From the IMG/VR virus record IMGVR_UViG_3300020391_000004, positions 67,615-131,614 of that record: DNA of 64,000 bases, one strand, 5' to 3'. A program made the position numbers and the translations under genes. Source of the stretch: a virus. Positions 11,766-21,430 of the stretch are shown here, piece by piece (position 1 is the first letter of the stretch; the number at the start of each line of letters is the position of its first letter). The notes under the pieces are model-generated. The model made no database searches. It had not been told where the DNA came from and saw only the letters and a program-made list of their open reading frames with translations.

Positions 11766-11947
11766 TATCCTATCTCATCATTAAGCGGAAGTATTGTAAT
11801 GATAACTTGCCAGTTATTTGGATCATCAAACTCAAACTTGTTAACTCCTGCTTCATCAGCACGTTCTTTTGAATCATATACTCCAACTAACTTAGTATAA
11901 CCTGATTTTTTGTTCTGTTTTTCCACCAAATAAATGCTAGTTGTCAT
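11765..11947 (-). CDS. hypothetical protein
   Basis: 60-aa ORF with coupled start and stop overlaps. Confidence 0.55.
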   Translation of the reverse strand: MTTSIYLVEKQNKKSGYTKLVGVYDSKERADEAGVNKFEFDDPNNWQVIITILPLNDEIG

Positions 11948-12339
11948 AATATTGCTATTCTTTTTTGAATATTATCTACAAGACTACTTAGCCCGTTTCT
12001 CCGTTGTGCAGTAAGTAATTGTCTTATTCCTAGTAACTCTATATCCTGTTTTGTAATTGTTTTAGCTTCTTCTAAATTAATATCAGTAAAACAATCACAA
12101 ATGATACTAGTGATACCTTTTGTGATCATTGCATCACTATCGTAATAAACTTTTACAAGATTGTCTACAACTCCAACATCAATCCATATTTTACTCATAC
12201 AACCTCTAACCAGTCTATCATCAGTTCTTAATTCTTTTGGCAATGATGTGATGTGTTTGGCTAAATCTATTATATAAAATAACCTATCATTCTCATCTAA
12301 ATATTCGAACTCTTCTTTCCACTTTTGTATCTTATTCAT
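11944..12339 (-). CDS. sufE: SufE family cysteine desulfurase activator
   Basis: VRGCMSKIW (catalytic Cys), SDAMITKGI and RRNGL. Confidence 0.9.
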
Positions 12340-12698
12340 TCTTCTGGGCCTGGGTTAGGACTAAAATCTTTTGTCTTATCTTTATCATATCCGTTTGCAG
12401 GATTAAGTGCGTCTGCATTAGGCAATGGCTCTAACTTTTTAGTAATGTTGGGCCAAGCATCAGGCCCTGTACTATGTTTTGTATTGATGTCTAACCAATA
12501 TTGTAATTCGCTTGTCATAACAGTGTCAGGCACTATTGCATCTGCAGGGCATTCAGGTTCACAAACTCCGCAATCTATACATTCGTCTGGATTAATCACA
12601 ACTGTATTTTCGCCTACATAGAAACAATCTACGGGACAAACTTCAACACAGTCAGTGAATCTGCAATTAATGCATTTATCGTTTACAATATATGTCAT
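12336..12698 (-). CDS. fdxA: FdxA-type (7Fe/8Fe) ferredoxin
   Basis: [18 protein letters not shown] and [16 protein letters not shown]. Confidence 0.92.
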
Positions 12699-12716
12699 GA
12701 AATACTTTTCTATAGT

Positions 12717-12754
12717 AAAAAGAGCGAGTAACTATATTTATAATTACCCGCTCT
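12717..12754 (-). terminator. intrinsic terminator after AAA ATPase gene
   Basis: AGAGCG-GGUAA / UUACU-CGCUCU stem followed by U-run. Confidence 0.7.
12735..12742 (-). promoter_or_regulatory. T4-type late promoter TATAAATA upstream of fdxA
   Basis: Exact gp55 consensus, located in the loop of the terminator hairpin. Confidence 0.65.
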
Positions 12755-12763
12755 AGTAAATGA

Positions 12764-12803
12764 ATCGCGATCGGAGGAGAGAGAGGAGAGAGAGTCACGC
12801 GAT
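12764..12803 (-). ncRNA. candidate anti-Shine-Dalgarno RNA hairpin (3' UTR of AAA ATPase gene)
   Basis: AUCGCG/CGCGAU stem enclosing CUCUCUCUCCUCUCUCUCCUCC, two tandem complements of AGGAGAGA. Confidence 0.55.
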
Positions 12804-12812
12804 CCAAACTGT

Positions 12813-13859
12813 TTACACTCGCTTCATACAAGTGCTTTCTGCTAGTACCTTCCAATTGCTAGGACTAATCTTAGCAAGGTCGGCTACTTTCAAAGCCATT
12901 CTTAAACTTACTTCCCTGAACTTGTTACAGTTATCAGCGATAAAGTCTATAACTTCTGTTTCTAATTCTTTACTCATATCGTAACCTTTAAATAGATCAC
13001 CTTTATCTGCAATTTGTTTAACTCTAAGAATTTTATCTCTCATAGTATCTAATGTAAGATCCAAATAATGACATCTACTTTGTAGAGCTTCAAGATGATC
13101 TTGTAACTTCTTACTCCTAACATTCTCAAATTTAATGTTAGTAATAAAACAAGCACTGCCTTTAAATTCAAACTTATCTGGTATACCTTCACTTCTTAAT
13201 TTGTTACTTTCGGCATTCCAATATATCATTCTCTTCTTACCACTATCAAGTGCAGCCTTAAGAATGTTAAGTGCAAGATCATCCATTAATACACTATCAC
13301 AGTCATCAAACACTAAAACATTGCCTTTGTCTGAAAACTCATATAACTTTGCATAAAGTCCTAGTGCAGTCATTGCACCTTTAACAACTTCGTACTTACG
13401 TCTGCTACCTGCCATATCACCAAACAAACTACTTTTGTTTAGTTCTTCTTCAACACCATAACTTTTACCAACCCCCGGAGGACCAGTAACAATTAATGCT
13501 CTTATATCACTGTTTACAAGAGACTTAGTCATCTGATCTAATATCTCAAATCTAGTGCCAATTTCTGCAATTCTTTTTGCATCTTGTTCTGCAGTAAACT
13601 TAGGCTCTGCTTTTGCAACTACATCTGCTTTTGCACCTTCTTGCACATTAAAACTATCTTGCTCAACAAACTTAATATCTTCAGGTGTGTTTACTGCAAC
13701 ACGAATTTTTGTAGCCATATCACCAAATCTACAACTACCGTTGACAGTAACAAAACCTCCACCATCTTTTTTACTTTGAAAATTCTTAATTAAAGGAAAT
13801 ACAGTATTCTGTACTGCTTGATTCCTGTAACTACCGTTCTTGACTAATACATATGACAT
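12813..13859 (-). CDS. AAA+ ATPase family protein
   Basis: Walker A GPPGVGKS, Walker B VLVFDD, arginine-finger region SRC. Confidence 0.85.
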   Translation of the reverse strand: MSYVLVKNGSYRNQAVQNTVFPLIKNFQSKKDGGGFVTVNGSCRFGDMATKIRVAVNTPEDIKFVEQDSFNVQEGAKADVVAKAEPKFTAEQDAKRIAEIGTRFEILDQMTKSLVNSDIRALIVTGPPGVGKSYGVEEELNKSSLFGDMAGSRRKYEVVKGAMTALGLYAKLYEFSDKGNVLVFDDCDSVLMDDLALNILKAALDSGKKRMIYWNAESNKLRSEGIPDKFEFKGSACFITNIKFENVRSKKLQDHLEALQSRCHYLDLTLDTMRDKILRVKQIADKGDLFKGYDMSKELETEVIDFIADNCNKFREVSLRMALKVADLAKISPSNWKVLAESTCMKRV

Positions 13860-14167: not shown

Positions 14168-14406
14168 TATATCATCTCATCTTGTGAATATTTGTAAGTA
14201 TTATATTGATCTTTGTAACATTCTACAAAATTGTAAATAGTTTTAACAAGTTTTATATCCTTAACACCACCAGTTGATTGGGCAATATCCATCATACTTA
14301 GTAGATCTTTTTCTGCACTACTTATTGAATCATGCTTACCAGTTTCATATTCAACTGTAACACTATCTTCTTTAACTACACCTGTTAATTGTATTTTCTT
14401 TTTCAT
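14167..14406 (-). CDS. hypothetical early protein
   Basis: 79-aa ORF with AGGAGAGA RBS behind an early promoter. Confidence 0.7.
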   Translation of the reverse strand: MKKKIQLTGVVKEDSVTVEYETGKHDSISSAEKDLLSMMDIAQSTGGVKDIKLVKTIYNFVECYKDQYNTYKYSQDEMI

Positions 14407-14421
14407 AAAGTTCTCTCCTAA

Positions 14422-14448
14422 TTTCTAACTATGCTGTTATAATAACAT
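14422..14448. repeat. 27-bp direct repeat (copy at 20411-20437) covering -10 box and leader
   Basis: TTTCTAACTATGCTGTTATAATAACAT is identical at both sites. Confidence 0.9.
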
Positions 14449-14466
14449 CGTTAGGATAGTTGTCAA
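14439..14466 (-). promoter_or_regulatory. early promoter TTGACA-N16(TGT)-TATTAT
   Basis: Read directly. Confidence 0.85.
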
Positions 14467-14467
14467 C

Positions 14468-14899
14468 CTATGTACTGAACTTTTTAATTCTTTTTTCATG
14501 TCTACCACCATCAAATTTTGTTTGTAAAAATGTATCTACAATATCTATTGTATCTGGTTCCAATGTTTGTAATGATCCGCCTAAACATAAAATATTACAA
14601 TTACCATGTGATCTAGCCTGTTCTGCTAATTCAATATTAAAACATAATGCTGCTCTTATATTTCTATGTTTATTTGCAGTAATAGCCATTCCTTGTCCAG
14701 TTCCACAAACTAATATTCCATAATCATATCCATTATGTAGTACGTAGTGTACTACTTTTTCAGCATAGTCCGGATAATCAACACTGTCCTCACTATGAGT
14801 GCCTAAATCAACATAGGCATGTTCTGTACTATCTAAATGTTCTTTTATCCATTCTTTTAATTTATAACCACCGTGATCACTTGCTATTGCTATTCTCAT
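14468..14899 (-). CDS. rpiB: ribose-5-phosphate isomerase B
   Basis: IASDHGG, DYPDYA, GILVCGTGQGM, ANKH, HGNCNILCLG and GGRHEKR; ATGA overlap with the upstream gene. Confidence 0.95.
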   Translation of the reverse strand: MRIAIASDHGGYKLKEWIKEHLDSTEHAYVDLGTHSEDSVDYPDYAEKVVHYVLHNGYDYGILVCGTGQGMAITANKHRNIRAALCFNIELAEQARSHGNCNILCLGGSLQTLEPDTIDIVDTFLQTKFDGGRHEKRIKKFST

Positions 14900-15981
14900 T
14901 GTAAATACCTTTTTGTACAAAGCCAACCAATTAATCTTTTATTTAAACCTGTAAATTTTTTATTATAAAGCAAAGGTCTCCATTGTTCTACTAAGTCATT
15001 ATAAGACTCCGAACCTTCCCAATTGGGCCATTCTTTTGCCCACTTATAATGAGTCACTTCATCATTCCATTTATGAGATCCAAAATAATTATCTACTATA
15101 TAGTTTAAATCTCTCATATTAGGTTTTATCAAAAATCTTTCATGCATAAAGATTCTACCTAAACTTTCATTTAAACTTTTAAATGCTCCGTTATTATTAG
15201 TTTTGTATACTATATCTGTGCCTGTAAATTGTTTATTTTTTATTAGCCATTTTTTTGCAAGATGTGATTGTTTAATAATTAACGGAGCACTTCCAATATA
15301 AAACATTTCTAAGTTTGATTCGCCCCAAGACTCATCATCTTGGTCATAAAAAAGAGAATGGTATCCTTTTTCATCTTTGTAAATAAAAGGTTTGTTTCCT
15401 CCTGTTAGGATACAACCATTTTTTAATATCTTTTGATATAAAGCAGGATGCCTAATTTGCACTGTTGATTCATACCCTATATGATGCATTACTAATAGAT
15501 AATTTGTTTTAGAAATATCATTGCCTGGCTTATGATTAAAAATACTATTCCCTTCATAATTATCTAATTTACGATCGTATAAAACTTTTGCTCCCATAAG
15601 TTTATCTTTATTTTCATTTAAATATTTTATAGAAAGTTGTGTATCTAAATTCCATTTTGTATCTGGATTACGCCCAACATACCATACACAAATATAATCT
15701 AATGGTATTTTATATTTTATAAAAGTTTGTAATAATGTATGACAATCAGTTCCGCCACCATAACACAACACAATTGTATCATATTTTTCCCGTAATTGTA
15801 TTGCACGTTGTCTTTGTAATTCTTCAACAGTTTCATCTGGTTCAATTGTCCAATCATATCCATCTAAGTATTCATCTAAAAGATAAGCATTAAATGATAA
15901 TAATGGATTATCAATTGCATATTTAACTGCTATAAATTTATTATTAAAATATTGATCGCCTACTCTCCATCCCCACTGCAT
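14896..15981 (-). CDS. adenine-nucleotide alpha-hydrolase (PP-loop)-like protein
   Basis: LREKYDTIVLCYGGGTDC is a variant of the SGGxDS PP-loop. Confidence 0.55.
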   Translation of the reverse strand: MQWGWRVGDQYFNNKFIAVKYAIDNPLLSFNAYLLDEYLDGYDWTIEPDETVEELQRQRAIQLREKYDTIVLCYGGGTDCHTLLQTFIKYKIPLDYICVWYVGRNPDTKWNLDTQLSIKYLNENKDKLMGAKVLYDRKLDNYEGNSIFNHKPGNDISKTNYLLVMHHIGYESTVQIRHPALYQKILKNGCILTGGNKPFIYKDEKGYHSLFYDQDDESWGESNLEMFYIGSAPLIIKQSHLAKKWLIKNKQFTGTDIVYKTNNNGAFKSLNESLGRIFMHERFLIKPNMRDLNYIVDNYFGSHKWNDEVTHYKWAKEWPNWEGSESYNDLVEQWRPLLYNKKFTGLNKRLIGWLCTKRYLQ

Positions 15982-17304
15982 TTAGTTCGCTCCTGCATAA
16001 TATTCATTTATCATTAAAAATGTATAAAAGTGATCTAAAAGGATATGTCCTACTACCATCCAAAATATAAAAGGAATATAATTAACTTGAGGAGTTTTCC
16101 AGGCAATAAATGTTGCAATACAAAATAAGACCATATTGAATAGTCCTTGTCCTTGTGTTGTTTCCCCTACCAAATAAGTTGTAAAACAAAGAATAAAAAA
16201 TACTACAATTTTAAGTATAGTATTATTATTAGGAACAATTTTTACAAAATGTTTTGCAAATTTAATTGCTAATGTTAGTGCTATTAGGTTTACAAGTAAT
16301 AATAAATGCCACTGATTTGAAAGTAATCCTAATACTTCATTAGCACTATTTTCCCAACCTTTAATATCAAGCATTGCATAAATTATTGCTTCACTGCCTG
16401 TTATAGGTATTCCAAACATCAATAATGGAAATAATTGTGTAATACTTCCTGCATTATTTGCAGTTTCACTGCTTGTTAAACAATAAGTATTACCAGGCTT
16501 ATAATTATTTTGAATTCTTTTTTCTGCAAGATAAGATAAATGTGATGCACTAATAGTTGTTAGTCCGGGCAATAGCCCTCCTAAACTACCTATTAAAGAC
16601 CCTCTTAGTATACACCATTTATGTGCAAATAACGACTTTATTCTTAGAAACTTTTCGCGACTTAATAGTTCTTTTTGGGAATGATCTTCAGCTGAAAGCA
16701 CCTCCTTCATACTTAAAAGACCTGCACATAAAGGAAAAAAATGAATACCTTGACTAAAAATTAAAATATCAAAATATGTTAATGGAATATTTGTATTCCC
16801 ACTATATCCAATATGGCATAATCCTATTGCTAAAATTATTAAAAAAACATCTAACATAAGTTTATTTTTAGTAGTCCATATTAAACTAATTCCTACAATG
16901 GCAAACAAAACAGACTTTTCAAAACTTGTCAATGATAAACTTATAGTAGCTAATGCCATCAAACCAATAGCAATTAATCCAAATGTTGTACCTATAAAAC
17001 TACCTACACCTGTCAAAAAAATTGCTTTTTGACCTTGGCCTTGTTTAGATAAATTATAACCTTCAACCACTGCAGGAAAGCTACTTGCTTCTCCTGCTAT
17101 GCCGAGATATATAGCAGTTACACTTCCAAAGTATTGGGCACTACATACCATACATGTGTAGAACATTAATAGTTCAACAGGTTGTAAATCAAGCAGAAGA
17201 GGATATAGAATAGCACATGCCACAAACATTCCTACTCCAGGAACACAACCGCATATAATTCCTACTGTGCTTCCTATTAAGGCTGCTTGTAAAATTTCAT
17301 ACAT
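15982..17304 (-). CDS. tctA: tripartite tricarboxylate transporter permease TctA-like
   Basis: Multi-TM; YFGSVTAIYLGIAGE, SETANNAGS and LLMFGIPITGSEA motifs. Confidence 0.85.
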   Translation of the reverse strand: MYEILQAALIGSTVGIICGCVPGVGMFVACAILYPLLLDLQPVELLMFYTCMVCSAQYFGSVTAIYLGIAGEASSFPAVVEGYNLSKQGQGQKAIFLTGVGSFIGTTFGLIAIGLMALATISLSLTSFEKSVLFAIVGISLIWTTKNKLMLDVFLIILAIGLCHIGYSGNTNIPLTYFDILIFSQGIHFFPLCAGLLSMKEVLSAEDHSQKELLSREKFLRIKSLFAHKWCILRGSLIGSLGGLLPGLTTISASHLSYLAEKRIQNNYKPGNTYCLTSSETANNAGSITQLFPLLMFGIPITGSEAIIYAMLDIKGWENSANEVLGLLSNQWHLLLLVNLIALTLAIKFAKHFVKIVPNNNTILKIVVFFILCFTTYLVGETTQGQGLFNMVLFCIATFIAWKTPQVNYIPFIFWMVVGHILLDHFYTFLMINEYYAGAN

Positions 17305-17315
17305 TTAATTGTATA

Positions 17316-18203
17316 TTAGTACTGATCCCAGCCTAATTCTTTTTCCATTGTAATTTGTGTACTTTTATCAAAAGTTAATCTTAGTTTCTTTTTGTTAGTG
17401 TACACTCCGATATTGCCTGTGTTATTTTTTACATCTTCTTTCATAGAATTAGATATAGTTTTAGCAATATCATTTTTATCGTTAAAAACAAACCATGTAC
17501 TTAACCATGCCCTTGTCAACTTAGAATTATTAAAATAATCTGCTAACTTAGGAATACCTTTAACTTTATCTTGTTCAATAGTTTTTAATATAATGGTATA
17601 TTCATTTTTAATTTTTTGTAATCTTAAAAAGTGTCTATATGATGTCCAAACTGCATCAATTTCTTCCGATGCCATTCCTGCCCTCATTTTTGAACTACCA
17701 TTGTAACCAACGAATACATGATCAGAACCCCATGAATTATTCATTTGATTATGCCATTCTCTTTCTACAGAGCTACTGCCTGAGTAACCAATCTTTAATC
17801 TTTTATTTTTAAAATCTTCTATTGATAATCCTTTGGTCTTTATTACCAAATATAATCCACCTACTTTACTAACTATAGGAGTTGCACCTTTAAAACTTAC
17901 ATATGGACAAGCTGGATCATTTTTTAATTTACTTACCAACTGATAATAGTTTTCATAATGTGTTAAAAATGTACTGCCTTTGGCTTGTTTACTAACGACT
18001 GCAAAGCCTTTACATGCACTGCCAGGAACAATCGCATCAAGTGTAATTTTGCCATACTTACCTTGCTTACTGTCCTTAGCCATTAGTTGTGCAAAAGCAT
18101 TAGTACCACCACCTGTGGATCCTGTAACAATCATTGGAATAGTTTCAGAAAAAACTTTAGTTGTAAACATAAACAAAAAAATTGCAAAAAATATTTTTTT
18201 CAT
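17316..18203 (-). CDS. tctC: TctC/Bug-like substrate-binding protein
   Basis: Signal peptide; IPMIVTGSTGGGT, IVPGSA and YNGSSKMRAGMASEEIDA; adjacent to tctA. Confidence 0.7.
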   Translation of the reverse strand: MKKIFFAIFLFMFTTKVFSETIPMIVTGSTGGGTNAFAQLMAKDSKQGKYGKITLDAIVPGSACKGFAVVSKQAKGSTFLTHYENYYQLVSKLKNDPACPYVSFKGATPIVSKVGGLYLVIKTKGLSIEDFKNKRLKIGYSGSSSVEREWHNQMNNSWGSDHVFVGYNGSSKMRAGMASEEIDAVWTSYRHFLRLQKIKNEYTIILKTIEQDKVKGIPKLADYFNNSKLTRAWLSTWFVFNDKNDIAKTISNSMKEDVKNNTGNIGVYTNKKKLRLTFDKSTQITMEKELGWDQY

Positions 18204-18386
18204 AGATTAATCCTTTACCTTAAAATATTATTATGTTGATTATACATAAAATTATAATGCACTGTCAACTTTAAAATTTGTTTGAATATCGACTTATTAA
18301 TTAGGATAGGGCGTTCTTGTAAGTAAAGAGTATAACTCAGGCGTCCATTTTTGTATCCACGTCTAAGAAAGGCGTTGTCGACTATA

Positions 18387-18393
18387 TATTTAT
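18387..18393 (-). promoter_or_regulatory. late promoter ATAAATA upstream of the tct operon leader
   Basis: Same motif as precedes structural genes; overlaps the stop of 18390..19019. Confidence 0.45.
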
Positions 18394-19019
18394 TTTGCTA
18401 AACTAAGCACTCTATTTGCTTTTGGTTTTCCTCTGACGTTTGCTAACCATCTTTCAGTTGGTCCACAATTCACTGCACCGTGAGGAGTTACAGTGCCAGT
18501 TATTTTATAGCAATCGCCACTTTTCCAATTAGTAATTGCATCTTCACCCCATAGCACAACCTGACCTAATCCCCAATCATTTAAGAAAACAAAATATCTT
18601 TCCCAATCGTCGTCAGCAGTAAAGTCATAGTGCATCCATAACATATCACCTGGCAACTGCTTGTTAATTTTTACAGGACTATATATTGAATCATTAGGCA
18701 TTTCAAGCCCTAAGTCATCCATAATTTTTTTAAAAGGAGAATAGTTAATACAATACTTACTAGGAGATTCTCTGTACATGTATTGTGATTTGTTTACATA
18801 TCTTGTACTATCTGTTGTAGGAAAAATACCTTCGTCACGTTCTTGTTTTACTCTCCAGTTCCATGCAAACCAGTCAGTGTTAGTCCAATCAATATCTTTG
18901 AAATCATTATGAATTTCTGTAAAGTTTACATTTAATCTACCTATGTATTCATATTCAGTTCTTATAGGTTGATTATCTAACCCTCTTAGTTTACGAGCAC
19001 GATCCCATCTATTGTCCAT
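18390..19019 (-). CDS. 2OG-Fe(II) dioxygenase-like protein
   Basis: HxD (MHYD), distal His (PHGA) and Arg in a beta-rich fold. Confidence 0.7.
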   Translation of the reverse strand: MDNRWDRARKLRGLDNQPIRTEYEYIGRLNVNFTEIHNDFKDIDWTNTDWFAWNWRVKQERDEGIFPTTDSTRYVNKSQYMYRESPSKYCINYSPFKKIMDDLGLEMPNDSIYSPVKINKQLPGDMLWMHYDFTADDDWERYFVFLNDWGLGQVVLWGEDAITNWKSGDCYKITGTVTPHGAVNCGPTERWLANVRGKPKANRVLSLAK

Positions 19020-20455: not shown

Positions 20456-20679
20456 CCCCCATTGCTCATTACTTTTAATAATTGTAATTCTTTTCCTGTA
20501 ATCTCCCTAAGGGTCAATCCTTTGCCTCCTGGGTCCATACTTTCATATTTTATAAGACAAGCACGGGCATGAATATCTTTCCAAATTTCTTTTTTACCAT
20601 CTGGCCAGGCAATCTCATAAGTACGTGGTGTTTTATCCCAACTTTTAGGAGCACCTTCTTTCATATAAGTTACAGTCAT
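20452..20679 (-). CDS. hypothetical protein
   Basis: 75-aa ORF coupled to the upstream gene. Confidence 0.6.
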   Translation of the reverse strand: MTVTYMKEGAPKSWDKTPRTYEIAWPDGKKEIWKDIHARACLIKYESMDPGGKGLTLREITGKELQLLKVMSNGG

Positions 20680-21101
20680 TATTTAAGATATATCCTGTTG
20701 CCTCTTAGTGCAAAAAATAAGCCTCCACAGTATAGCATTACATGGAAGTTATCATATAATAACACATCTACAAAACTTTCAGGCTCACCAATAAGAATTA
20801 CCCCTGTCATTATTCCACAAATAGTTACTCCACTAAAACGTGTAAGTAGGTCTCCTAATGTAGGTAATAATTTAGGAAAAATTAATATTGCACCAATAAT
20901 TAATCCTATGCCTGCAAATAATTCTCCCCAAACTACAAAGAACCATACTGTCATTGGTAATCCATAGCCTTCTGCATCTTCTATGTTTACCGGTAGCTTT
21001 GCTAGTCCTTGTAAAATAAAGACTATTGCTAATGGCATTCTTATTAATAAATTACTTCCTTTAAATTCAGGAATTTTATCTAAATAGTTTGAAATAGTCA
21101 T
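20679..21101 (-). CDS. DoxX family membrane protein
   Basis: LIRMPLAIVFILQGLAK...ELFAGIGLIIG...LTRFSG. Confidence 0.8.
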   Translation of the reverse strand: MTISNYLDKIPEFKGSNLLIRMPLAIVFILQGLAKLPVNIEDAEGYGLPMTVWFFVVWGELFAGIGLIIGAILIFPKLLPTLGDLLTRFSGVTICGIMTGVILIGEPESFVDVLLYDNFHVMLYCGGLFFALRGNRIYLK

Positions 21102-21430
21102 GAAATAAACCTATATAAAATTAAAAATAAAATACTTGTTAAACCTGCACTGCCTATTAGTGCAATCCAGAAATTAAAATAAAGAAAACCTGTAGCAAAT
21201 AAAGGGAAGAATATTAAACTAAGTCCAACAAAATAAACTGTTTGGTAACTAAATGTTTTAAATGTTTGATAATCAACTCCTGTATAATACATAATAATTA
21301 ATGTGACAAAACTTACCATAGGTATGCCCATTACAACTGCACCAAATGTTGCATTTTTTTGTGCTACGGTGCTAACTATTCCAATAATTAATCCGCCTAG
21401 CAATGCTTTCCAGATTATATCAAGATACAT
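21098..21430 (-). CDS. DUF3147/GlpM-like 4-TM protein
   Basis: KALLGGLIIGIVS...GAVVMGIPMVS hydrophobic pattern. Confidence 0.55.
   Translation of the reverse strand: MYLDIIWKALLGGLIIGIVSTVAQKNATFGAVVMGIPMVSFVTLIIMYYTGVDYQTFKTFSYQTVYFVGLSLIFFPLFATGFLYFNFWIALIGSAGLTSILFLILYRFIS

What the first reader, a model, noticed from the sequence alone, without database searches (positions are those of the whole stretch)
14468..18203. Phage-encoded tripartite tricarboxylate transporter operon: tctC-tctA-PP-loop enzyme-rpiB, without tctB
The four genes are tightly linked (11-bp gap, abutting stop/start, ATGA overlap) and bounded by promoters. TctA is 440 aa. TctC has GGGTN where the family usually has GGxxD, hinting at an altered ligand. 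No small TctB ORF is present. Inference: the phage installs its own uptake system for a carboxylate and a cytoplasmic ATP-dependent enzyme to process it, feeding sugar-phosphate or glycan metabolism. A 2OG dioxygenase lies immediately upstream.
Basis: partly seen in the sequence, partly recalled or inferred. Interest (0 to 1): 0.72.

Follow-up and report, generated by a model that had tools for sequence, protein, structure and literature searches.

The report
Phage acid importer plus orphan ATP enzyme
An uncultured giant marine phage carries its own two-part uptake system for a small organic acid, joined to a virus-only ATP-using enzyme shaped like asparagine synthetase, and many uncultured phages share this gene set, whose substrate is unknown.

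Summary
On the minus strand of a tailed-phage record lie four tightly joined genes: an exported binding protein, TctA, a PP-loop enzyme and RpiB. The only perfect sigma-70 consensus promoter in the 64-kb window sits 35 nt upstream.

- TctA is certain by Pfam (E 1.4e-64).
- The binding protein misses Pfam TctC but has the TctC/Bug fold (Z 16-21) and a profile link to true TctC. The family's conserved Asp is replaced by Asn.
- The 361-aa protein matches no Pfam, PHROG or NCBIfam model. It has the PP-loop fold, and its best match is the asparagine synthetase domain (Z 10.2).
- No TctB is present.

The core trio is co-conserved. Of 27 viral TctA loci, 23 have the binding protein and 23 the enzyme; 10 cellular TctA loci have no such enzyme. 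All four genes are under purifying selection (dN/dS 0.09-0.30). RpiB is linked only in this clade, in 4 loci.

Best reading (0.6): a TctB-less importer captures a carboxylate, which the enzyme adenylates and probably amidates. The substrate is unknown, and a link to glycan or sugar-phosphate metabolism is not shown.

This scan found the same cassette before on other DNA. My paper searches found only a bare tctA mention.

The parts
18239..18268 (-). Perfect sigma-70 consensus promoter-like site (TTGACA-N18-TATAAT), 35 nt upstream of the binding-protein ATG
   Evidence: a 12/12 match and the only perfect match in the 64-kb window. Its function is inferred, not shown.
17316..18203 (-). Exported TctC/Bug-fold solute-binding protein (295 aa). 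It has an N-terminal hydrophobic signal-like segment and two invariant Cys (C64, C99). The pincer-loop motif reads T-G-S-T-G-G-G-T-N.
   Evidence: model pLDDT 88.8; the Foldseek top 14 hits are all TctC/Bug proteins (4x9t, E 1.7e-12). Z 16.0-21.1 for 11 TctC/Bug entries, then 14.4 or less; hhalign to true TctC gives 85.5% probability, E 5.7e-6; invariant residues; no Pfam TctC hit.
15982..17304 (-). Short TctA permease (440 aa) of the tripartite tricarboxylate transporter family
   Evidence: PF01970 at E 1.4e-64 and 218.8 bits, covering profile positions 2-415 of 423; the G-x3-G-x3-G-x2-P-G-x-G repeat is present in TM1 (G11..G25) and near-complete in TM7 (G235..G247); it belongs to a clade of 47 metagenome clusters at 37-98% identity, then 35% or less to cellular TctA of about 500 aa.
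14896..15981 (-). Virus-only PP-loop ATP pyrophosphatase-like enzyme (361 aa). It resembles the asparagine synthetase synthetase domain but has no glutaminase domain. The PP-loop reads GGGTDC here and SGGxDS in most relatives.
   Evidence: motif; model pLDDT 66.6. AsnS 9b6c Z 10.2; beta-lactam synthetase 8.6; LarE, NadE and CarA 8.3; weak Foldseek hits to LarE and NMN synthetase; the best BFVD hits are uncharacterised phage proteins, E 2.5e-13; no Pfam or PHROG hit; the only NCBIfam line is a chance-level hit to an unrelated family; 1395 representative clusters at E<=1e-3.
14468..14899 (-). Ribose-5-phosphate isomerase B (143 aa). Its start overlaps the enzyme's stop (ATGA).
   Evidence: PF02502 at 2.7e-51. 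TIGR01120 rpiB at 156.1 bits against a cut-off of 138.65, and NF004051 at 175.3 against 135; the same order and overlap occur in L047 and L048.
18390..19019 (-). Associated cupin-like protein (209 aa) with an HxD...H pattern, probably a 2OG/Fe(II) oxygenase of the Asp/Asn-hydroxylase type. It lies upstream of the promoter, so it is not in the same predicted transcript.
   Evidence: Atlas neighbours are viral clusters in which 14-49% carry PF05118; homologues flank or interrupt the cassette in related loci (45 ORF hits); no Pfam hit for this protein.
14439..14466 (-). Promoter-like site (TTGACA-N16-TATTAT with TG) that starts the next transcription unit and marks the 3' border of the cassette
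   Evidence: 11 of 12 matches. No terminator-like site was found on this strand.

Best explanation
The cassette is a phage-borne 'capture and convert' module with three steps.

1. The host's sigma-70 polymerase transcribes it from a consensus promoter (inferred).
2. The exported TctC-fold protein binds a small carboxylate in the periplasm and hands it to the phage's own short TctA permease. TctA imports it by ion-coupled secondary transport. It works either without TctB or with a TctB borrowed from the host (inferred from family knowledge).
3. In the cytoplasm the PP-loop enzyme adenylates the carboxylate with ATP, and an amine or ammonia displaces AMP to give an amide. This is the chemistry of the asparagine synthetase / beta-lactam synthetase / NAD synthetase class (inferred from fold and motif). 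The solute is thereby trapped or turned into something the phage needs.

What is shown: the gene identities, their co-conservation, and purifying selection. What is not shown: the ligand, the direction of flux, the enzyme's chemistry and independence from TctB.

RpiB, translationally coupled to the enzyme here, is most simply a separate pentose-phosphate and nucleotide-supply gene that rides in the same early operon in this clade.
For: Identity of the parts: (see the parts list).

The record is a phage. It carries a T4-type terminase, a tail sheath, RecA-like and ClpP genes. It is an IMG/VR virus record of 131.6 kb, estimated 38% complete.

Co-conservation around TctA:
- Of 27 viral loci found through TctA, 23 hold a TctC-like protein, 22 of them adjacent.
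- 23 hold at least one homologue of the enzyme within 4.4 kb, 11 of them adjacent.
- The 4 loci without them stop 0-307 bp behind TctA.
- TctA identity to the window falls to 27-35% in most of these loci, so the linkage has survived long divergence.
- Of 16 metagenome loci found through the enzyme, 13 have TctA directly upstream.
- The 10 cellular TctA loci (Alteromonadaceae-type) have no homologue of the enzyme.

Wider enzyme family. In 159 viral loci of two other subfamilies, 101 hold a TctC-like protein. Of 208 unique enzyme genes, 70 have one as direct neighbour. A Pfam check of 40 evenly sampled neighbours gave PF03401 TctC in 22, and 18 of these reached the gathering score. No other binding-protein family stood out.

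Receptor and enzyme diverge together. Mantel r is 0.67 over 75 adjacent pairs (p 0.001). In loci with two or more pairs, the nearest enzyme and the nearest receptor agree in 89 of 102 comparisons, against 49.8 expected by chance. These comparisons are not independent.

Selection: dN/dS is 0.09-0.30 for all four genes.

Persistence: near-identical DNA occurs in marine metagenome runs of several studies from 2014 to 2025. Contigs of 2678 and 2246 nt differ by 0-1 letters.

RNA: a weak hint only. Two 100%-identical contigs in one metatranscriptome run lie at 17247-17429 and 17679-17858. The first bridges the binding-protein/TctA junction.
Against: - No ligand, transport activity or enzyme activity has been measured.
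- The binding protein fails Pfam TctC, and the family's 'very conserved' Asp is Asn.
- The window's enzyme has a degenerate PP-loop: S75 is Gly and S80 is Cys, while 90% or more of 60 relatives keep Ser.
- The enzyme model is mediocre (pLDDT 66.6; 106 residues below 50). Foldseek E-values are only about 1e-3. A Z of 8-10 is not far above the background the tool itself quotes.
- No sequence-level link to any solved PP-loop protein was found.
- TctB, which cellular systems normally carry (review PMC5812351), is absent. The permease may therefore not work alone.
- Only 18 of 159 loci of the wider enzyme family hold TctA within 6 kb. The tight partner is the receptor, not the permease.
- The RNA contigs could come from DNA carried into the library (the tool's own caveat).
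Confidence: 0.6

Rival explanations
1. Unlinked auxiliary genes. The transporter simply imports a fuel such as citrate or a C4-dicarboxylate. The PP-loop enzyme serves an unrelated pathway, for example tRNA, DNA-base or cofactor modification, and RpiB serves nucleotide supply. On this view the tight packing is ordinary phage genome economy.
For: - Phage genes are generally packed tightly: nearly all large ORFs of the window lie on one strand.
- Related PP-loop clusters in the Atlas partly carry QueC (38% of one cluster).
- Only 18 of 159 wider-family loci hold TctA nearby.
- rpiB is clearly optional.
Against: - The enzyme accompanies TctA in 23 of 27 viral loci despite 27-35% TctA identity, and in 0 of 10 cellular loci.
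- A TctC-like receptor is the direct neighbour of 70 of 208 enzymes in other subfamilies.
- Receptor and enzyme trees mirror each other.
Confidence: 0.13
2. Pyridine-carboxylate (nicotinate or quinolinate) salvage for NAD. The Bug-like receptor and TctA import the precursor, the NadE/NMN-synthetase-like PP-loop enzyme amidates a nicotinate nucleotide, and RpiB supplies ribose-5-phosphate for PRPP.
For: - Bug27 and Bug69 bind quinolinate at 70-136 nM (PMC11452294, abstract and passages read).
- Bug27 (2qpq) is among the top fold matches.
- NMN synthetase, NAD synthetase and LarE are among the enzyme's fold matches.
- The relative P0019 gives weak NadE (6.8e-4) and LarE hits.
- rpiB is coupled to the enzyme here.
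Against: - Pfam scans of the large ORFs of the 131.6-kb record found no NadC, PncB, NadD, NAMPT or PRPP synthetase. The record is only 38% complete.
- The best Z is to asparagine synthetase, not NadE.
- 73 of 159 loci carry two or more enzyme paralogues, and 9 loci carry two or more adjacent receptor-enzyme pairs. That argues for many substrates rather than one cofactor.
- All TctC structures score alike (Z 16-21), so Bug27 is not singled out.
Confidence: 0.07
3. Tailoring of an acidic sugar or glycan building block. The cassette imports a uronic, aldaric or nonulosonic acid and the enzyme forms its amide, as WbpS-type amidotransferases are recalled to do. The product would feed phage-directed glycan synthesis, which is.
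For: - Sugar-nucleotide genes lie near the cassette in some loci: DegT aminotransferases (L010, L025, L029), epimerase/dehydratases (L011, L016, L025), a glycosyltransferase (L025) and FkbM methyltransferases (L008, L011).
- RpiB is a sugar-phosphate isomerase.
- The review's substrate table lists a galactarate/glucarate TTT system (PMC5812351, passage read), and a TTT system is involved in alginate use by a Vibrio (PMC13390454, search listing only).
Against: - These neighbours vary and are absent from the window's own cassette.
- No NCBIfam or Pfam sugar-amidotransferase model matches the enzyme.
- RpiB passes the equivalog cut-off for ordinary ribose-5-phosphate isomerase B.
- The WbpS analogy is recalled, not tested.
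Confidence: 0.1

Closest known systems
[quoted passage not shown]
   Same: - It has a TctA permease with the Pfam domain and the duplicated glycine/proline motif.
- The adjacent exported receptor has the TctC two-lobe fold over 263-268 residues, and both pincer loops are recognisable.
- Many receptors serving few permeases in the wider phage family recalls the 'orphan' Bug proteins (review PMC5812351).
   Different: - There is no TctB. All 10 cellular control loci carry a 261-284-aa, 5-6-TM gene between tctC and tctA; 0 of 27 viral loci have one.
- TctA is about 60-70 residues shorter than the cellular ones and 35% or less identical to them.
- The receptor fails Pfam TctC, and its motif reads T-G-S-T-G-G-G-T-N instead of P-F-x-A-G-G-x-x-D.
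- It is encoded by a virus and coupled to an enzyme that cellular TTT loci lack.
Asparagine synthetase B class of PP-loop amide and lactam synthetases (human and E. coli AsnS/AsnB, beta-lactam synthetase, carbapenam synthetase) and other PP-loop ATP pyrophosphatases (NadE, LarE, TilS, QueC)
   Same: - It has the Rossmann-like PP-loop fold (Z 10.2, 8.6 and 8.3 to 9b6c, 1jgt and 1q15; 182-194 residues aligned).
- The SGGxDS loop sits at the expected place in 90% or more of relatives.
   Different: - It has no N-terminal glutaminase domain.
- No Pfam or PHROG model and no related NCBIfam model matches, and no solved chain matches by sequence.
- The family looks confined to viruses: Atlas neighbours are 95-100% viral, and none was found in 50,697 deposited phage records with three queries.
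- In the window the loop is GGGTDC.
Phage auxiliary transport genes such as cyanophage pstS (recalled) and the tctA hit reported on SUP05 viral contigs (Roux et al. 2014, PMC4164917)
   Same: A virus carries host-type nutrient-uptake components. Roux et al. list tctA and a 2OG-Fe(II) oxygenase among four putative AMGs (passage read).
   Different: That paper reports 'protein domain hit only' and says the role is unknown. It describes no receptor, enzyme or cassette. Here the receptor, the permease and a dedicated enzyme form a conserved unit.

Membership tests
TctA (Pfam PF01970, TTT large permease) | Match to the family profile above the gathering score | tested here: met
   218.8 bits against a cut-off of 28.9, covering profile positions 2-415 of 423. 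One search gives the same result from the genome search.
TctA (Pfam PF01970, TTT large permease) | Duplicated motif G-x3-G-x3-G-x2-P-G-x-G in TM1 and TM7 (review PMC5812351, passage read) | tested here: met
   Read. TM1: G11-x3-G15-x3-G19-x2-P22-G23-x-G25. TM7: G235-x3-G239-x3-G243-x2-P246-G247-x-T249, where the last G is T. Most of these positions are invariant in 23 relatives.
Tripartite tricarboxylate transporter (complete TctCBA system) | A small 4-5-TM TctB subunit encoded with TctA | tested here: not met
   no PF07331 match at E<=1 in the 131.6-kb record, which is 38% complete; the junctions leave no room; 0 of 27 viral loci have an ORF with 3 or more TM segments within two genes of TctA; 10 of 10 cellular loci do. 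TM counts come from a crude hydropathy scan.
TctC / Bug solute receptors (Pfam PF03401) | Match to the family profile | tested here: not met
   no PF03401 hit, even at E<=1. There are indirect links. hhalign to 10 true TctC proteins gives 85.5% probability and E 5.7e-6 (the TctC status of three of those proteins was confirmed). In addition, 22 of 40 sampled viral relatives reached by iterated profiles hit PF03401.
TctC / Bug solute receptors (Pfam PF03401) | Two-lobe TctC fold | tested here: met
   the top 14 Foldseek hits are all TctC/Bug proteins. Z 21.1 (4x9t, 267 aligned, rmsd 3.2) down to 16.0 for 11 entries. The next class (TAXI) scores 14.4.
TctC / Bug solute receptors (Pfam PF03401) | Loop motif P-F-x-A-G-G-x-x-D between beta1 and alpha1 (review PMC5812351) | tested here: not met
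   The window reads T27-G-S-T-G-G-G-T-N35. Across 15 relatives only G28, S29 and G32 are invariant, and N35 is nearly so. The register was confirmed by hhalign. The second loop (G-Y-x-G-S) aligns with P-Y-P-G-S of true TctC.
PP-loop ATP pyrophosphatases (adenine nucleotide alpha hydrolases) | SGGxDS pyrophosphate-binding loop | tested here: inconclusive
   The window and three close relatives read GGGTDC. The other six of the 10 sequences in A2 read SGG[VI]DS. In 60 wider relatives G77 and D79 are invariant, and S75, G76 and S80 are kept in 90% or more.
PP-loop ATP pyrophosphatases (adenine nucleotide alpha hydrolases) | Fold | tested here: met
   at least 44 of the 50 listed chains are PP-loop or related HUP-fold proteins, best Z 10.2. 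Searches agree. The model is of moderate confidence (pLDDT 66.6).
Asparagine synthetase B (glutamine-hydrolysing) | N-terminal class II glutaminase domain plus the Asn_synthase Pfam domain | tested here: not met
   no PF00733 or PF13537 hit. The fold match covers only chain residues 144-464 of 9b6c. Full-length AsnB-like genes occur as separate neighbours in L017, L020, L023 and L030.
Ribose-5-phosphate isomerase B | Scores above the curated cut-offs of PF02502 and TIGR01120 | tested here: met
   PF02502 173.6 bits against 24.7; TIGR01120 156.1 against 138.65; NF004051 175.3 against 135.

The most novel reading that the evidence does not exclude
The receptor-enzyme pairs may be matched 'make and sense' sets rather than nutrient traps. 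The virus-only ligase would make a small amide that leaves the infected cell. The cognate exported receptor, with TctA, would detect or re-import it in other infected cells. That would give giant aquatic phages a family of private chemical signals whose synthase and receptor diversify together, as in peptide or acyl-homoserine-lactone systems.

The co-divergence of receptor and enzyme fits this reading: r 0.67, and 89 of 102 concordant choices. So does the presence of several diverged pairs per phage: 9 loci carry two or more adjacent pairs. Both facts also fit the nutrient reading. No exporter was seen, and nothing here tests signalling.
Probability: 0.06. Interest if true: 0.9.

Novelty: new variant of a known kind. 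Interest (0 to 1): 0.64.

Why it matters
Phages are known to carry single uptake components. A complete, dedicated receptor-plus-permease system wired to its own enzyme would be different: it would mean large marine phages reprogramme what an infected cell takes from dissolved organic matter, and not only how the cell spends it.

Three points make it testable and useful.
1. It is a natural TctB-less TTT system, which bears on the unresolved question of what TctB does.
2. The enzyme belongs to a family of over a thousand sequence clusters with no entry in Pfam, PHROGs or NCBIfam, so one solved activity would annotate a large block of viral dark matter.
3. The matched receptor gives a direct experimental handle on each enzyme's substrate: find the ligand, then test it on the enzyme.

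Tried and rejected
- Complex prediction for TctA with the binding protein.
- Sequence searches of solved structures with TctA, the receptor profile, the enzyme profile and the wide enzyme profile. Nothing significant came back; QueC at E 2 is noise.
- tblastn against 50,697 deposited phage records. The receptor gave no match. The enzyme and two distant relatives gave no match. TctA gave only four weak hits at 23-28% identity. I take this as 'not in cultured or deposited phages at this sensitivity', not as absence.
- PHROGs for five cassette-region proteins and the downstream ATPase, and for 20 enzyme relatives: no hit for any cassette protein or enzyme relative.
- NCBIfam sugar-amidotransferase idea (WbuX/PseA type, recalled): no such hit.
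- NAD-salvage idea: no supporting genes in the record.
- A single wide enzyme alignment (A5) was too diverse for a locus scan. I replaced it with two subfamily alignments.
- TctB candidates elsewhere in the window. The 140-aa protein at 20679-21101 is DoxX-like. The 110-aa membrane protein at 21098-21430 has no family hit. Neither is adjacent to the cassette nor co-conserved with it.
- Metatranscriptome. Only two short contigs lie on the stretch. The rest of the cassette has no RNA cover in that run, which says nothing either way.
- A contig joint in run X4 skips 14403-17801. Only 21 letters lie on its shorter side, too weak to claim a cassette-less variant.
- Host identification was not achieved.

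Full report
**What is there.** The window is part of an IMG/VR virus record of 131.6 kb that CheckV rates 38% complete. It encodes a T4-type large terminase, a tail sheath, a RecA-like protein, ClpP and a dNMP kinase, so it is a large tailed phage. G+C is 29-40% along the window.

The finding's coordinates match four minus-strand ORFs:
- a 295-aa protein at 17316-18203;
- a 440-aa protein at 15982-17304;
- a 361-aa protein at 14896-15981;
- a 143-aa protein at 14468-14899.

The only perfect TTGACA-N16-18-TATAAT site in the whole 64-kb window lies 35 nt upstream of the first gene, on the coding strand. An 11/12 site follows the last gene. Promoter-like hits as a class are not enriched in the region (29 against 33.5 expected), and no terminator was found on that strand.

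**Identity of the four proteins.**

TctA is unambiguous. PF01970 matches at E 1.4e-64 over nearly the whole profile. It has the duplicated glycine/proline motif that the TTT review names (PMC5812351, passages read; residues read, conservation).

The 295-aa protein has no Pfam TctC hit, and its only NCBIfam hit is weak, to the TAXI family. However:
- A confident model (pLDDT 88.8) matches only TctC/Bug proteins in the top 14 Foldseek rows.
- In the second look, 11 TctC/Bug entries score Z 16.0-21.1 over 263-268 residues, and the next class scores 14.4.
- A profile-profile comparison with ten cellular TctC proteins gives 85.5% probability and E 5.7e-6. It aligns the window's T-G-S-T-G-G-G-T-N with their W-G-A-G-G-G-T-D. 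Three of those ten were checked and pass Pfam TctC.

The Asn is nearly invariant in the 15 relatives. The protein also has an N-terminal hydrophobic segment that the model leaves unstructured, and two invariant cysteines. Both fit export.

The 361-aa protein matches no Pfam or PHROG model and no related NCBIfam model. Its relatives carry SGGxDS where the window has GGGTDC. A moderate model (pLDDT 66.6) aligns best with the synthetase domain of asparagine synthetase (Z 10.2). Beta-lactam synthetase, LarE, NAD synthetase, carbapenam synthetase and TilS follow at Z 8.2-8.6. Foldseek agrees only weakly. It has no glutaminase domain.

RpiB passes the curated cut-offs.

The upstream 209-aa protein shows an HxD...H pattern. 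Its language-model neighbours are viral clusters that partly carry the Asp/Asn-hydroxylase family. This is a lead, not a demonstration.

**No TctB.** PF07331 finds nothing in the record at E<=1, and there is no room at the junctions. As a control for my hydropathy scan, all 10 cellular TctA loci fetched show a 261-284-aa ORF with 5-6 predicted TM segments between tctC and tctA. None of the 27 viral TctA loci has an ORF with 3 or more TM segments within two genes of TctA. The record is incomplete, so a TctB elsewhere, or use of the host's, cannot be excluded.

**Is the linkage real?** Each protein's close relatives are unnamed metagenome proteins:
- 15 for the receptor;
- 9 for the enzyme;
- for TctA, 47 clusters at 37-98% identity, after which identity drops to 35% or less and the hits are mostly longer. 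The named ones are cellular TctA of about 500 aa.

In the species-representative genome collection, only one 14-kb contig of a metagenome-assembled genome (MAG) holds a close TctA (68%). The other ten loci are 26-31% identical.

Scanning IMG/VR with TctA gave 27 loci. With iterated profiles, 23 hold a TctC-like protein (22 adjacent) and 23 hold at least one homologue of the enzyme (11 adjacent). The four exceptions end 0-307 bp after TctA. Most of these TctAs are only 27-35% identical to the window's, so the trio has stayed together over long divergence. The ten cellular loci have no enzyme homologue. Sixteen metagenome loci found through the enzyme show TctA directly upstream in 13. One has the receptor directly upstream instead, and two are too short to tell.

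All four genes are under purifying selection. NG86 dN/dS is 0.15-0.30 against L047/L048. For the less saturated L047-L048 pair it is 0.26 (TctA), 0.19 (enzyme) and 0.09 (RpiB). rpiB follows the enzyme only in the window, L047, L048 and L017.

**The wider family.** A profile of the enzyme finds 1395 representative clusters at E<=1e-3, and 1029 at E<=1e-10. Twenty sampled members have no PHROG hit, and their only Pfam line is one chance-level hit. Three queries found none in 50,697 deposited phage records. Atlas neighbours are 95-100% viral. The best BFVD structural matches are uncharacterised proteins of uncultured phages.

In 159 viral loci of two other subfamilies:
- 101 hold a TctC-like protein;
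- 70 of 208 unique enzyme genes have one as direct neighbour;
- only 18 loci hold TctA within 6 kb;
- 73 loci hold two or more enzyme paralogues.

To check that the iterated receptor profile had not drifted, I scanned 40 evenly sampled hits against Pfam. Twenty-two hit TctC, 18 at or above the gathering score, and no other binding-protein family was prominent. The window's own subfamily members in that sample had no hit.

Receptor and enzyme distances correlate (Mantel r 0.67, p 0.001, 75 pairs). Where a locus offers a choice of pairs, the nearest enzyme and the nearest receptor coincide in 89 of 102 non-independent comparisons, against 49.8 expected. Duplication of pairs as units would also give this result.

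**Neighbours.** Recurrent but variable neighbours of the viral cassettes are:
- full-length AsnB-like amidotransferases;
- radical SAM/SPASM enzymes;
- DegT aminotransferases;
- epimerase/dehydratases;
- methyltransferases;
- cupin or 2OG-oxygenase-like proteins;
- in one locus, a DctP-type receptor.

Pfam scans of the record's large ORFs found no NAD-salvage genes.

**Occurrence and expression.** Near-identical DNA is present in marine and seawater metagenome runs of several studies from 2014 to 2025. Long contigs differ by 0-1 letters, and a variant about 95% alike also occurs. One metatranscriptome run holds two identical short contigs, one of which bridges the receptor/TctA junction. DNA carry-over cannot be excluded.

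**Interpretation.** The best-supported reading is a phage-borne importer of TTT type (receptor plus short TctA), coupled to a cognate cytoplasmic PP-loop enzyme that adenylates the imported carboxylate and most likely forms an amide. It is probably expressed early from a host-type promoter. RpiB is a clade-specific addition.

Shown: the identities, the linkage and the selection. Inferred: direction, chemistry, timing and TctB independence. Unknown: the substrate.

The rivals are unlinked auxiliary genes, pyridine-carboxylate salvage and sugar-acid tailoring. They are set out with their evidence in the Rival explanations section.

**Known or new.** My paper searches found only the SUP05 virus study, which lists tctA as a 'protein domain hit only' of unknown role (PMC4164917, passage read), and a review that repeats it (PMC6359870, passage read). 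I found no description of the cassette or of the enzyme family. The library does not hold most subscription journals.

Earlier notes of this scan describe the same core cassette on at least eight other genomes. I re-derived the core claims independently here.

Noticed in passing
Outside the window, same record: L043 7880-9034, 9039-10178, 12386-12823, 15683-16894 (G000:C1 has the same coordinates): The phage record also encodes a full-length cytochrome b (PF00033 and PF00032), a plastocyanin/azurin-like copper protein, a DAO-type FAD oxidoreductase next to serine hydroxymethyltransferase, ClpS and Hsp20. Respiratory-chain genes in a phage are unusual.
   Followed up: no
window 11944-13859: Downstream of the cassette lie an AAA-like protein (phrog_1250), a 2x[4Fe-4S] ferredoxin with DUF3470, and SufE. 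Locus L017 shows a similar run after its cassette: PP-loop enzyme, RpiB, a 348-aa ORF with no Pfam hit, then ferredoxin. L048 has an AAA348 homologue after RpiB.
   Followed up: partly
window 18270-18389: The intergenic leader upstream of the consensus promoter holds three ACGCC-containing words within about 70 nt, read. This may be an operator or chance.
   Followed up: no
window 20679-21430: Two small membrane proteins lie 2.5 kb upstream: a DoxX-like 140-aa protein (PF07681, 1.7e-5) and a 110-aa protein without a family. They are not adjacent to the cassette, and I do not read them as TctB.
   Followed up: partly
L008 5007-5975 (minus strand): One related viral locus carries a TRAP-type DctP receptor (PF03480, 5.2e-33) beside its TctA and an unlabelled 313-aa ORF. 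Phages may mix receptor classes.
   Followed up: no
window 15191 and 15250 (run X6); 14403-17801 (run X4): One low-depth contig shows a 3-nt and a 1-nt deletion inside the enzyme gene. Another contig shows a joint that skips most of the cassette, with only 21 letters on one side. These may be population variants or assembly noise.
   Followed up: no
L019 3932-12048; L028 4657-6970: Some loci carry three or four (L019) or two tandem (L028) paralogues of the enzyme around a single TctA. One such contig (L018) bears a giant-virus MAG label in its name.
   Followed up: partly
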